A stretch of DNA of 64,000 nt from the NCBI RefSeq assembly GCF_003790525.1, contig NZ_CP033635.1. The stretch is one strand, 5' to 3'. Made by a program: the position numbers. This DNA is from Escherichia coli. GTDB taxonomy: Bacteria > Pseudomonadota > Gammaproteobacteria > Enterobacterales > Enterobacteriaceae. Numbering within the stretch: position 1 is the first letter of the stretch; every line of letters starts with the position of its first letter. This document shows, one piece after another, positions 12,001-15,000 of this stretch.

Positions 12001-15000
12001 CGGTTCGCAGTACGCGCCCGGACGAATGCCTTTCACACCGCAGGCACGACCGACCATTTTCTGCGCCAGCGAGAAGCCGCGATCGCTCTCAGCGACATCT
12101 TTCGCCTGACGGAACACATCGCTGTGCGGCAGACCAAGTGCTTCACGCGCTTTGGTGGTCAGGCCACGCCCGATAATCAGCGGAATACGACCACCGGCAC
12201 GCACTTCATCAATCAGCACGTCGGTTTTCAGTTCGAAGGTCGCCAGCAGTTCGCCGGTTTCGTGGTTACGCACTTCACCTTTGTACGGGTAAACGTCAAT
12301 TACGTCACCCATGTTCAGGTTAGAGACGTCCACTTCAATTGGCAGTGCACCCGCATCTTCCATCGTGTTAAAGAAGATGGGTGCAATTTTACCGCCGAGG
12401 CACAAACCACCGCCGCGTTTGTTCGGCACATGTGGAATATCATCGCCCATAAACCACAGAACGGAGTTCGTGGCGGATTTACGCGATGAACCCGTACCCA
12501 CAACGTCACCGACGTACGCCAGCGGGAAACCTTTCTGTTGCAGAGCTTCAATCTGTTTGATCGGACCAACAACACCAGGCTGATCTGGCTCAATACCTTC
12601 ACGGGCGTTTTTCAGCATCGCCAGCGCGTGCAGTGGGATATCCGGGCGTGACCACGCATCCGGTGCCGGAGAAAGGTCATCGGTGTTGGTTTCGCCTGTG
12701 ACTTTGAAGACGGTAACGGTCAGTTTTTCAGCCAGTGCCGGGCGATTCAGGAACCATTCGGCATCTGCCCAGGACTGCATTACCTGCTTCGCATATTCGT
12801 TACCTGCTTTGGCTTTCTCTTCTACGTCATAGAAGTTATCGAACATCAGCAGCGTGTGAGAAAGTGCTTTGGCAGCGATCGGTGCCAGTTTGGCATCATC
12901 CAGCGCATCGATCAGCGGATGAATGTTGTAACCACCCTGCATGGTGCCCAGCAGTTCGATGGCTTTTTCCGGAGTCAGCAGTGGGGATTTGGCTTCGCCT
13001 TTCGCGACAGCAGCCAGGAAGCCTGCTTTGACATAGGCGGCTTCATCGACGCCAGGGGGAACACGGTTGGTTAACAGATCTAACAGGAATTCTTCTTCGC
13101 CCGCGGGCGGGTTTTTCAGCAGCTCTACAAGTGCGGCCATTTGGTTTGCATCCAGGGGTTTGGGCGCAATCCCCTCAGCGGCACGCTCAGCTACGTGCTT
13201 ACGGTATTCTTCTAGCACGACGGTTCTCCTCGCTCTCATTGTCATAGTGCGGCAGGCGATTCTCTTCACGCTCCTGTGAGACAGCAGTTTGTAGGGTAAA
13301 TGCCCAGTACCGCAACGGGCAGAATAGCAGGATTTTGACGATGTGTTAATCTGTTTACAAAAAAGCAACATAAAAAAGTGGCTGAATCGTTAAGGATAGT
13401 CTAGAGAATGTTTCCCTCCGTAAAAACTTCGTTAATTCGCATGGTGATAATCACCTTTCTCAACGAATCCCAAGATTAGTCAAAATTTAAACTACGGCCT
13501 CTTTATACTCGGATTCACAGCACCTGCGGGTGGCAGTTCGCCGACCATTGCGATTTCCTTGAGATCCGAATTATGAAAATGACTTTGCCGTTTAAACCCC
13601 ATGTGCTGGCGCTAATTTGCAGTGCCGGGCTTTGTGCCGCCTCTGCCGGGCTATATATAAAAAGCCGCACAGTGGAAGCGCCTGTGGAATCGCAATCGAC
13701 ACAACAGACTGCGCCTGACATCTCCGCAGTTACGCTTCCTGCAACGGTTTCCGCGCCTCCCGTAACGCCTGCCGTCGTCAAATCTACATTCAGCACTGCA
13801 CAAATAGATCAATGGGTTGCGCCTGTCGCGCTGTACCCCGACTCTCTGCTTTCACAAGTGTTAATGGCATCAACCTATCCGGCAAACGTTGCGCAAGCAG
13901 TGCAATGGTCGCACGATAATCCACTTAAACAAGGCGATGCTGCTATTCAGGCGGTATCTGACCAGCCCTGGGACGCCAGCGTCAAATCACTGGTGGCCTT
14001 TCCACAGTTGATGGCATTGATGGGCGAAAACCCGCAATGGGTGCAAAACCTGGGCGATGCTTTTCTGGCGCAGCCGCAGGACGTGATGGACTCGGTACAA
14101 CGATTGCGGCAACTGGCGCAACAAACCGGTTCGCTAAAGTCATCAACTGAACAAAAGATCATCACGACAACGAAAAAAGTCGTACCGGTAAATCAGCCCG
14201 CCAACGCCCCTGTTACACAATCAAATACCGTTTCTACGTCCAGCCCCGTCGTCGCAGAACCTGCACCGACCGTAATAACCATTGAGCCAGCCAATCCGGA
14301 TGTGGTTTATATTCCGAACTACAACCCAAACGTGGTTTACGGCAGTTGGGCCAATACCGCTTATCCGCCAGTTTATCTGCCGCCGCCAGCCGGAGAACCG
14401 TTTGTTGACAGCTTTGTGCGCGGATTCGGCTATAGCATGGGCGTTGCTACCACATACGCACTATTCAGCAGCATCGACTGGGACGACGACGATCATGACC
14501 ATCATCATCATGACGATGATGATTATCATCACCACGATGGCGGTCATCGTGACGGTAATGACTGGCAACACAACGGCGACAACATCAATATCGACGTCAA
14601 CAATTTCAACCGTATCACTGGTGAGCATCTTACTGATAAGAATATGGCATGGCGGCACAATCCAAACTACCGTGATGGTGTGCCCTATCATGATCAGGAT
14701 ATGGCAAAGCGGTTTCACCAAACCGATGTCAACGGCGGCATGAGCGCCACGCAGTTACCTGCTCTATCGCGCGACAGTCAGCGTCAGGCAGCAGCAAGTC
14801 AGTTTCAGCAACGAACACACACTGCGCCAGTCATTACGCGAGATACTCAACGTCAGGCTGCGGCACAGCGATTTAATGAAGCGGAACATTATGGGAGCTA
14901 TGACGACTTCCGCGAGTTCAGCCGTCGCCAACCACTGACCCAGCAACAAAAGGACGCTGCTCGTCAGCGTTATCAGTCGGCCTCGCCTGAGCAGCGCCAG

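What the first reader, a model, noticed from the sequence alone, without database searches (positions are those of the whole stretch)
14482..14560. Asp/His-rich low-complexity tract inside yacH encoded by codon-level repeats
The YacH translation contains DWDDDDHDHHHHDDDDYHHHDGGHRDGNDWQHNGD, encoded by runs of gac/gat and cat/cac codons. Such tracts can bind metals and are prone to slippage, and this YacH is 585 aa against about 617 aa as I remember K-12, so the length difference may map here or in the C-terminal repeats. The alternative-frame track ORF 14282-14743 is a shadow of this tract.
Basis: partly seen in the sequence, partly recalled or inferred. Interest (0 to 1): 0.3.

Follow-up and report, generated by a model that had tools for sequence, protein, structure and literature searches.

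The report
Variable Asp/His-rich loop in YacH
The envelope protein YacH of E. coli carries a real, selectively kept but length-variable aspartate/histidine-rich loop that grows and shrinks by small in-frame slippage events; it is a fairly ordinary low-complexity insertion, and it does not explain why this strain's protein is 32 residues shorter than K-12's.

Summary
The window is E. coli SMS-3-5, and yacH (13573-15330, +) encodes a 585-aa DUF3300 protein. The tract is real: aa 302-336 (14476-14580) hold 14 Asp and 10 His, and the 19-aa core is 18/19 D/H, far beyond chance. The 585 vs 617 aa difference from K-12 is not in the tract. It is one missing 32-aa (96-bp) unit of the C-terminal repeat. 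The tract is nevertheless an indel hot spot. About 15% of 5,426 complete E. coli genomes carry another in-frame length: +6 bp (about 545), a 24-bp unit in 2-3 copies (83), or -39 bp (at least 211). Wider protein data give tracts of 20-49 aa. Most DUF3300 proteins have only 3-5 residues at this site. The Enterobacterales orthologs examined, where the site could be located, carry an 11-33 aa D/H/G/Y/N insert (NAY and GGY codons). AlphaFold places the tract as a low-confidence loop between confident strands. The D/H core is conserved at the amino-acid level (8 synonymous vs 1 nonsynonymous change against a diverged allele). Metal or cation binding is plausible but untested. The overlapping alternative-frame ORFs are by-products. 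Overall this is an ordinary low-complexity insertion of modest interest.

The parts
13573..15330 (+). yacH coding sequence (585 aa plus stop), a DUF3300-family envelope protein
   Evidence: ORF. 100% identical to the annotated yacH of E. coli SMS-3-5. Pfam PF11737 match of 263 bits over aa 75-333.
13573..13647 (+). N-terminal signal-like segment (aa 1-25: basic start, hydrophobic helix, A-S-A before G26)
   Evidence: Read from the sequence. AlphaFold predicts a helix at 9-24. DUF3300 proteins are reported to carry signal peptides (PMC4653623). Cleavage and final location are inferred, not tested.
14476..14580 (+). Asp/His-rich tract, aa 302-336 (DWDDDDHDHHHHDDDDYHHHDGGHRDGNDWQHNGD)
   Evidence: Predicted as coil with pLDDT about 46, between strands 299-301 and 338-341. 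It is an insertion relative to most of the family.
14482..14523 (+). Conserved D/H core, aa 304-317 (DDDDHDHHHHDDDD)
   Evidence: 8 synonymous vs 1 nonsynonymous codon differences against the diverged AST85 allele, dN 0.027.
14491..14514 (+). 24-bp unit GATCATGACCATCATCATCATGAC (DHDHHHHD). One copy here, two in Nissle 1917, CFT073, ABU 83972 and ATCC 25922, three in UPEC_U013
   Evidence: 83 genomes carry at least 2 copies.
14494..14499 (+). CATGAC hexamer that is tandemly duplicated in the +DH (587-aa) allele
   Evidence: DNA alignment. 543 genomes match at >=99% identity, plus 2 at 95-99%.
14509..14547 (+). 39-bp segment (aa 313-325) deleted in the 604-aa alleles, bounded by TCATC at 14505-14509 and 14544-14548 (one of several equivalent placements)
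   Evidence: At least 211 genomes.
14974..15327 (+). C-terminal basic Q/R-rich 32-aa repeats. There are 3 units here (aa 468-499, 500-531, 532-585) against 4 in K-12. This is the source of the 585 vs 617 aa difference
   Evidence: In K-12, TRF finds a 96-bp period with 2.5 copies. Predicted as helical hairpins.
14282..14743 (+). Alternative-frame (+1) ORF of 153 aa lying inside yacH, a frame shadow
   Evidence: The stop-free extent varies from 81 to 168 codons among alleles, and the product is T/I/M low-complexity across the tract.
14461..14721 (-). Antisense ORF of 86 aa over the tract, also a frame shadow
   Evidence: Antisense GAY/CAY reads RTC/RTG (V/I/M) and never gives a stop.

Best explanation
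The tract is a lineage-specific, intrinsically disordered Asp/His-rich loop inserted at a conserved short loop of the DUF3300 protein YacH. In most family members that loop is only about 3-5 residues, between a '...[D/N]W' anchor and a '[D/N][V/I][D/N][I/V][D/N]V' strand motif. It is encoded by cryptically simple NAY-codon DNA (GAY, CAY, TAY, AAY, plus GGY). Its length changes over evolutionary time through replication slippage and short-homology deletion or duplication, and only in-frame products were found within the tract among the E. coli alleles examined. The proximal D/H core is held by purifying selection. The most likely role, which is inferred and not shown, is a polyanionic, His-rich binding site for divalent cations such as Zn, Ni, Cu or Ca, or a pH-titratable site, exposed in the cell envelope on a Cpx-regulated protein. 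Steps that are shown: the tract's presence, the insertion relative to the family, the predicted disorder, the length polymorphism and its DNA basis, and conservation at the amino-acid level. Steps that are inferred: envelope exposure, cation binding, and any effect of tract length on phenotype.
For: Insertion: among 117 diverse DUF3300 representatives the site is typically 3-5 aa, e.g. CNWGHNDVNINVNRYNNINV. Klebsiella, Scandinavium, Rahnella and Dryocola-like orthologs carry long D/H inserts. In 109 of 120 Enterobacteriaceae cluster representatives the tract was located and is 11-32 aa (the search pattern did not match the other 11), with D 37%, H 29%, G 14%, Y 8%, N 7.5% and E about 0.1%. Disorder: pLDDT is about 46 in the tract, flanked by regions above 90. 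Slippage: the +6 bp allele is a tandem CATGAC, the 24-bp unit occurs 1, 2 or 3 times, and the -39 bp allele lies between TCATC repeats. Allele counts are about 545, 83 and at least 211 of 5,426 genomes, consistent with 9 of 60 rows in an evenly spaced sample. There are 19 distinct indel patterns in the 36-aa tract vs 20 in the other 294 aa. A published 8-bp frameshift deletion (GATCATCA, Asp284fs) in S. Typhimurium yacH falls inside the orthologous tract at aa 282-310. Constraint: the core shows 8 synonymous vs 1 nonsynonymous change and dN 0.027, against 0.073 in the helical domain and 1.34 in the aa 201-229 linker. Envelope context: yacH is CpxR-regulated, the deletion mutant survives protamine better, and the promoter is induced by ampicillin. 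DUF3300 proteins have signal peptides.
Against: No experiment or database entry links YacH or DUF3300 to metal binding. The near absence of Glu, and the restriction to residues reachable among NAY/GGY codons, could reflect mutational turnover as much as selection for a chemistry. The dN/dS contrast rests on only 14 codons and one pair of alleles. The -13 aa E. coli allele and an 11-aa Salmonella allele (P0342) are evidently tolerated, so most of the tract is dispensable at least in some backgrounds. Localisation is predicted only, and papers variously call the protein 'extracellular' or 'outer membrane'. The protein sets used to count variants are cluster representatives, which are enriched for outliers and may include assembly errors.
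Confidence: 0.55

Rival explanations
1. The tract is neutral filler. It is a slippage-generated low-complexity insertion in a tolerant surface loop, has no function of its own, and is kept D/H-rich only because slippage keeps copying GAY/CAY codons.
For: The residue set is exactly the NAY codons plus GGY, with almost no Glu, Lys or Gln. Large in-frame deletions persist in lineages: -13 aa in at least 211 E. coli genomes and an 11-aa Salmonella allele. Length and sequence differ in every genus. The tract is predicted disordered.
Against: The core has 8 synonymous vs 1 nonsynonymous change while synonymous sites are saturated, and its dN is lower than in the folded domains. The true linker at aa 201-229 has dN 1.34. 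The tract was found in every E. coli allele examined and in 109 of 120 Enterobacteriaceae representatives; the search pattern did not match the other 11. Even the shortest alleles keep a DDDDH(D)HHH start.
Confidence: 0.25
2. The tract is an electrostatic module rather than a metal site. In this reading the acidic loop (net about -13) binds cationic peptides such as protamine or cecropin, or it docks on the protein's own basic C-terminal repeats (net about +15) and releases them when the His residues protonate at low pH.
For: Charge segregation along the protein. The yacH deletion mutant survives protamine better, and yacH transcription falls on protamine or cecropin A exposure. Both the tract and the basic repeats vary in length.
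Against: This is purely inferential. No co-variation between tract length and repeat number is seen among the alleles examined: reference-length tracts occur with 3 or 4 units, the -13 tract with 4, and the +8 and +16 tracts with 3. The AlphaFold model gives no confident contact.
Confidence: 0.15
3. The tract is a contingency (phase-variable) locus, in which slippage switches yacH on and off at high frequency.
For: Repetitive codons, several length alleles, and one published out-of-frame deletion in Salmonella.
Against: TRF detects no tandem array in this allele, and the longest perfect trinucleotide run is CAT x4. Every length allele found in the tract in E. coli is in frame. Alleles are stable within lineages: repeated independent assemblies of Nissle 1917, CFT073, ATCC 25922 and UTI89 agree. 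The one frameshifted E. coli allele examined has its lesion upstream of the tract, at nt 866.
Confidence: 0.03
4. The overlapping ORFs (14282-14743 on + and 14461-14721 on -) encode real proteins, and the tract reflects constraint on them.
For: The ORFs are long for chance: 153 and 86 aa.
Against: They lie wholly inside a strongly supported gene. Their stop-free extent varies widely between alleles, 81-168 and 15-133 codons. Their products across the tract are T/I/M or V/I/M low-complexity strings, which follow mechanically from GAY/CAY codons. Synonymous changes in yacH are nonsynonymous in those frames.
Confidence: 0.01

Closest known systems
DUF3300 (Pfam PF11737) family of secreted or envelope proteins, typically encoded upstream of a DUF2950 gene
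   Same: YacH matches the family model at 263 bits over aa 75-333. It shares the helical N-terminal domain, the VYVPxYNPxVVYG motif, the glycine-rich segment ending in DW, and the D/N-V/I ladder. In Klebsiella a DUF2950 gene follows it.
   Different: The long D/H insert is absent from most of the family. E. coli has no DUF2950 gene downstream: yacH is followed directly by lpd. E. coli YacH also carries C-terminal 32-aa basic repeats. The family has no known function and no solved structure.
His/Asp-rich flexible loops of periplasmic metal-handling proteins, e.g. the disordered His-rich loops of P. aeruginosa PA4063 (PMC8561739, abstract seen) and the His-rich loop of ZnuA (from general knowledge)
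   Same: A disordered, His- and acid-rich loop on a protein that probably faces the periplasm, with variable length between species.
   Different: No sequence or fold relationship. No evidence of regulation by Zur, Fur or NikR and no demonstrated metal binding. YacH is under Cpx and Rob influence instead.
Coding low-complexity or cryptically simple sequences with in-frame length polymorphism (protein-coding VNTR-like regions)
   Same: Short direct repeats, tandem duplication of 6-bp and 24-bp units, microhomology deletion, and lineage-specific length alleles.
   Different: This is not a clean tandem array (TRF negative), and it is not phase-variable. The amino-acid core is under purifying selection.

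Membership tests
DUF3300 (PF11737) | Match to the Pfam HMM above its gathering threshold | tested here: met
   263.1 bits against a cut-off of 25, covering aa 75-333 and profile positions 2-227 of 227.
DUF3300 (PF11737) | N-terminal signal peptide (secreted or envelope location) | tested here: inconclusive
   The sequence has a basic n-region, a hydrophobic helix at 9-24 and an A-S-A motif. Signal peptides are reported for the family. No dedicated predictor or experiment was available.
DUF3300 (PF11737) | Co-localised downstream DUF2950 gene | tested here: not met
   Present in Klebsiella and reported as universal in rhizobia. In E. coli, yacH is followed directly by lpd. This is a context trait, not a membership criterion of the Pfam family.
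Periplasmic His-rich metal-binding loops (ZnuA/PA4063-like) | Cluster of His with Asp/Glu in a flexible loop | tested here: met
   10 His and 14 Asp in 35 aa, with loop pLDDT about 46.
Periplasmic His-rich metal-binding loops (ZnuA/PA4063-like) | Demonstrated binding of a transition metal | not testable with these tools
Periplasmic His-rich metal-binding loops (ZnuA/PA4063-like) | Homology of the host domain to a known metal-binding protein | tested here: not met
Tandem-repeat contingency locus | Detectable perfect or near-perfect tandem array | tested here: not met
   TRF returned 0 rows for yacH of this strain. Only 15-nt imperfect direct repeats were found (family D3).
Tandem-repeat contingency locus | Frame-shifting length changes that switch expression | tested here: not met
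   All E. coli tract alleles seen are multiples of 3. The one frameshifted E. coli allele examined is hit upstream of the tract. One 8-bp deletion is reported in a Salmonella isolate.
Coding low-complexity region with in-frame length polymorphism | Several in-frame length alleles among strains, explained by short repeats | tested here: met
   +6, +24, +48 and -39 bp alleles, plus further variants giving tracts of 20-49 aa.

The most novel reading that the evidence does not exclude
The D/H loop is a selected, tunable cation- or pH-responsive module that Enterobacterales added to a DUF3300 envelope protein. On this reading its natural length alleles (20 to 49 residues in E. coli, fixed in lineages such as the Nissle 1917/CFT073/ATCC 25922 group, which I take to be ST73 from general knowledge, and the carriers of the +DH allele) change envelope-stress, metal or cationic-peptide susceptibility. 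That would give the uncharacterised DUF3300/DUF2950 system its first functional handle.
Probability: 0.12. Interest if true: 0.5.

Novelty: new member of a known kind. Interest (0 to 1): 0.27.

Why it matters
YacH is one of E. coli's still uncharacterised proteins (listed under 'y-ome' in PMC12133099). It belongs to a large family, 9,507 representatives at 50% identity, with no known function or structure. Three results give a concrete starting point for experiments. The D/H loop is a conserved Enterobacterales-specific insertion. Its core is under purifying selection. Natural length alleles mark major lineages. Peptide metal-binding assays and allele swaps follow directly from these. The length polymorphism also warns that gene-level typing or GWAS signals in yacH may simply reflect this indel-prone tract and the variable C-terminal repeats. 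If the loop is only tolerated filler, the finding is a routine example of low-complexity evolution.

Tried and rejected
- Tandem Repeats Finder on yacH of this strain returned nothing. The tract is cryptically simple, not a clean array.
- Two junction-specific queries made only of tract sequence were silenced by BLAST's low-complexity filter. A query with a 55-nt unique flank worked.
- Ranking by coverage with the Nissle allele as query could not separate 1-copy from 2-copy alleles, because overlapping pieces were joined. It did reveal the 3-copy alleles.
- The first -39 bp junction query was confounded by joined pieces. The second lacked one CAT through my own typing error, but it could only seed on deletion alleles, so its count of 211 is a lower bound.
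- A CpxR-box scan (GTAAA-N5-GTAAA, up to 2 mismatches) gave 60 hits against 49 expected, and only one weak hit upstream of yacH, so it is not informative.
- NCBIfam has no model for this protein.
- Literature searches for a metal or histidine link found none.
- The idea that the frameshifted pseudogene in FDAARGOS_1285 arose in the tract was rejected. The 1-bp deletion is at nt 866, upstream of the tract.
- The idea that the 585 vs 617 aa difference lies in the tract was rejected.
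Full report
**Identity and observation**

The window matches E. coli SMS-3-5 (NC_010498.1) at 100% identity over yacH. The gene lies at 13573-15330 on the + strand, between acnB and lpd, which both run on the - strand. It encodes 585 aa with a strong Pfam DUF3300 match: 263 bits over aa 75-333. NCBIfam has no model for it.

The reported peptide is present exactly as quoted. The tract holds 14 Asp and 10 His in 35 residues, encoded almost entirely by GAC/GAT and CAT/CAC codons. The 19-aa core is 18/19 D/H. Using background frequencies I assumed from general knowledge, the binomial tail is about 8e-20, or about 1e-13 after multiplying by an assumed proteome size. Nothing else in the six frames of the window comes close.

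**Where the 585 vs 617 aa difference lies**

K-12 YacH is 617 aa. Aligning nine alleles shows that the 32 missing residues are one unit of a C-terminal 32-aa (96-bp) repeat, not part of the D/H tract.

| Strain(s) | Repeat units |
|---|---|
| K-12 | A-A-B-T |
| SMS-3-5, AR_0104 | A-B-T |
| ExPEC XM, Nissle 1917 | A-A-T |

A is the QAVREKMQTNP-type unit, B the QVFKEKVQQRP-type unit and T the terminal unit. The 3-unit length has therefore arisen by at least two different unit losses. In K-12 the two A units are 90/96 identical at the DNA level, and TRF reports a 96-bp period. In an evenly spaced sample of 40 of the 5,425 matching genomes, about 55% were of the 4-unit type and about 42% of the 3-unit type. 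The SMS-3-5 length is one of two common forms.

**The tract is nevertheless length-variable**

The DNA alignment and direct reading of fetched alleles show four kinds of change:

- **+6 bp:** a tandem duplication of CATGAC, adding DH (587-aa protein).
- **+24 and +48 bp:** the unit GATCATGACCATCATCATCATGAC (DHDHHHHD) is present twice in Nissle 1917, CFT073, ABU 83972 and ATCC 25922 (593 aa). It is present three times in UPEC_U013 (verified in the sequence, 601 aa). KE48 and DLL7555 show the same 229-bp span and are inferred to have three copies as well.
- **-39 bp:** a deletion between two TCATC microhomologies removes 13 aa (604-aa protein, which has 4 C-terminal units).

Junction-specific searches of the 5,426 complete genomes gave these counts:

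| Allele | Genomes |
|---|---|
| +6 bp | 543 at >=99% identity, plus 2 at 95-99% |
| at least 2 copies of the 24-bp unit | 83 |
| -39 bp | at least 211 |

Together these are about 15%, which agrees with 9 non-reference spans among 60 evenly spaced rows. Repeated independent assemblies of the same strain agree with each other, so the alleles are lineage-stable rather than phase-variable. The single frameshifted E. coli allele examined (FDAARGOS_1285) is mutated at nt 866, upstream of the tract.

Among 120 Escherichia, Shigella and E. albertii cluster representatives, the stretch between DW and NINIDV takes lengths of 20, 22, 24, 25, 26, 31, 32, 33, 34, 35, 36 and 41 aa. UPEC_U013 has 49 aa. That set gives 19 distinct indel patterns in the 36-aa tract against 20 in the other 294 aa of the region, and most of those 20 are singleton large deletions. 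This is about an eight-fold enrichment. The caveat is that cluster representatives over-sample outliers and may include assembly errors.

Independent support comes from a published S. Typhimurium isolate with an 8-bp frameshift deletion, 850_857delGATCATCA (Asp284fs), in yacH (PMC10048834). That position falls inside the Salmonella tract, aa 282-310. Salmonella also has an 11-aa in-frame allele alongside the 29-aa form.

**What the tract is within the family**

The DUF3300 family is very large: 9,507 representatives at 50% identity with E <= 0.001. In 117 diverse full-length members, the conserved '...[D/N]W' anchor and the '[D/N][V/I][D/N][I/V][D/N]V...N' motif are usually separated by only 3-5 residues, for example CNWGHNDVNINVNRYNNINV.

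Orthologs from Klebsiella, Scandinavium, Rahnella and a Dryocola-like lineage carry long D/H inserts at that site. A few unrelated lineages have independent D/H, D/G or G/Y inserts there too. Across 120 Enterobacteriaceae cluster representatives (Klebsiella, Salmonella, Citrobacter, Kluyvera, Raoultella, Pluralibacter, Pseudocitrobacter, Dryocola and others), the tract was located in 109 and is 11-32 aa long. The search pattern did not match the other 11. Composition is D 37%, H 29%, G 14%, Y 8% and N 7.5%, with Glu about 0.1% and no Lys. D, H, Y and N are exactly the four NAY codons, and G is GGY. This marks the DNA as cryptically simple sequence.

**Filler or constrained?**

The diverged allele of strain AST85 (75% protein identity) has the same tract length, which allows a codon-by-codon comparison. 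Synonymous sites between the two alleles are saturated.

| Region (aa) | Synonymous codon changes | Nonsynonymous codon changes | dN |
|---|---|---|---|
| D/H core (304-317) | 8 | 1 | 0.027 |
| Distal tract (318-336) | 5 | 8 | 0.19 |
| Helical domain (75-200) | 60 | 15 | 0.073 |
| Linker (201-229) | 2 | 24 | 1.34 |

The proximal DDDDHDHHHHDDDD core is therefore conserved at the amino-acid level, while the rest of the tract is more relaxed. Even the shortest alleles keep a DDDDH(D)HHH-type start. The sample is small, 14 codons and one pair of alleles, so this is suggestive rather than decisive.

**Function**

In the held literature yacH is uncharacterised. The reports found are:

- It is CpxR-regulated, its deletion improves survival on protamine, and its transcription falls on protamine or cecropin A exposure (PMC9600279).
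- It is down-regulated in a rob mutant under butanol stress (PMC7537768).
- Its promoter is induced by ampicillin (PMC8865558).
- It was a candidate in a GWAS of conjugation efficiency (PMC8954029).
- It is listed among y-ome genes (PMC12133099).
- In rhizobia, DUF3300 proteins carry signal peptides and always precede a DUF2950 gene (PMC4653623). The same arrangement is seen in Klebsiella but not in E. coli.

Nothing links the protein to metals. From the chemistry, a flexible loop of about 14 Asp and 10 His on a probably periplasm-exposed protein is most simply a divalent-cation-binding or pH-titratable polyanionic site. An electrostatic role is an alternative: the loop could bind cationic peptides, or pair with the protein's own basic C-terminal repeats (net charges about -13 and +15). 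Both roles are inferences.

**Shadow ORFs**

The ORF at 14282-14743 lies in the +1 frame of yacH, and the ORF at 14461-14721 is antisense. GAY/CAY codons read in the +1 frame as AYG/AYC (Met, Thr, Ile), and on the codon-aligned antisense frame as RTC/RTG (Val, Ile, Met). Neither reading can give a stop. The stop-free spans vary between alleles, 81-168 and 15-133 codons. They are by-products of the yacH frame, not genes.

**Verdict**

The feature is a new, well-documented member of a known kind, namely a D/H-rich low-complexity loop with in-frame length polymorphism. It is of modest interest, mainly as an entry point into the unknown DUF3300 family.

Noticed in passing
window 14974-15327: The C-terminal 32-aa (96-bp) basic Q/R-rich repeat varies in copy number and in which unit is missing. 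K-12 is A-A-B-T, SMS-3-5 and AR_0104 are A-B-T, and ExPEC XM and Nissle are A-A-T. The 3-unit form therefore arose at least twice.
   Followed up: yes
L015 3126-3932 (Klebsiella pneumoniae CP125156.1): In Klebsiella, yacH is followed by a DUF2950-family gene and a small hypothetical gene before lpdA. E. coli lacks both. DUF3300 and DUF2950 are reported as always adjacent in rhizobia. E. coli may have lost the partner gene.
   Followed up: partly
L003 2059-2299 (ExPEC XM); compare window 15331-15400: B2-type strains (ExPEC XM, Nissle, UPEC_U013) have about 170 extra bases between yacH and lpdA, with REP/BIME-like sequence (…tgtaggtcggataaggcgtttacgccgcatccggca…). SMS-3-5 has only the shared terminator hairpin aaaaaaagcggcgtggctagccgctttttt.
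   Followed up: partly
window 14173-14259 (aa 201-229 of YacH): The T/P/V-rich linker between the helical and beta parts of YacH is hypervariable by substitution: 24 of 29 codons are nonsynonymous against AST85. There are two distinct haplotypes among E. coli phylogroups, VVPVNQPANAPVTQSNTVSTSSPVVA and AVPVKQTVTAPVIPSNTVLTANPVIT.
   Followed up: partly
window 13443-13455: A perfect 13-bp palindrome, GGTGATAATCACC, lies in the acnB-yacH divergent intergenic region. It has a Fur-box-like TGATAATCA core, matching about 12 of 19 consensus positions by my own hand alignment, which is too weak to call.
   Followed up: no
NZ_AP023206.1 227975-229729 (H301); also the 3 plasmid places: A full-length yacH at 95% identity sits on a 404-kb record typed as an E. 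coli plasmid. A 5.37-Mb Klebsiella record (CP125156.1) is labelled 'plasmid unnamed2'. These are probably mislabelled or chromosome-derived replicons.
   Followed up: no
L007 (NZ_AP043644.1, strain AST85): This genome is labelled E. coli, but its YacH is only 75% identical and has extra N-terminal proline-rich insertions and 34-aa C-terminal units. It probably belongs to a cryptic Escherichia clade or another species.
   Followed up: no
L012 (FDAARGOS_1285), yacH nt 866: yacH is annotated as a frameshifted pseudogene because of a 1-bp deletion in the run ATGGGC just upstream of the tract. This could be a real mutation or an assembly error.
   Followed up: partly
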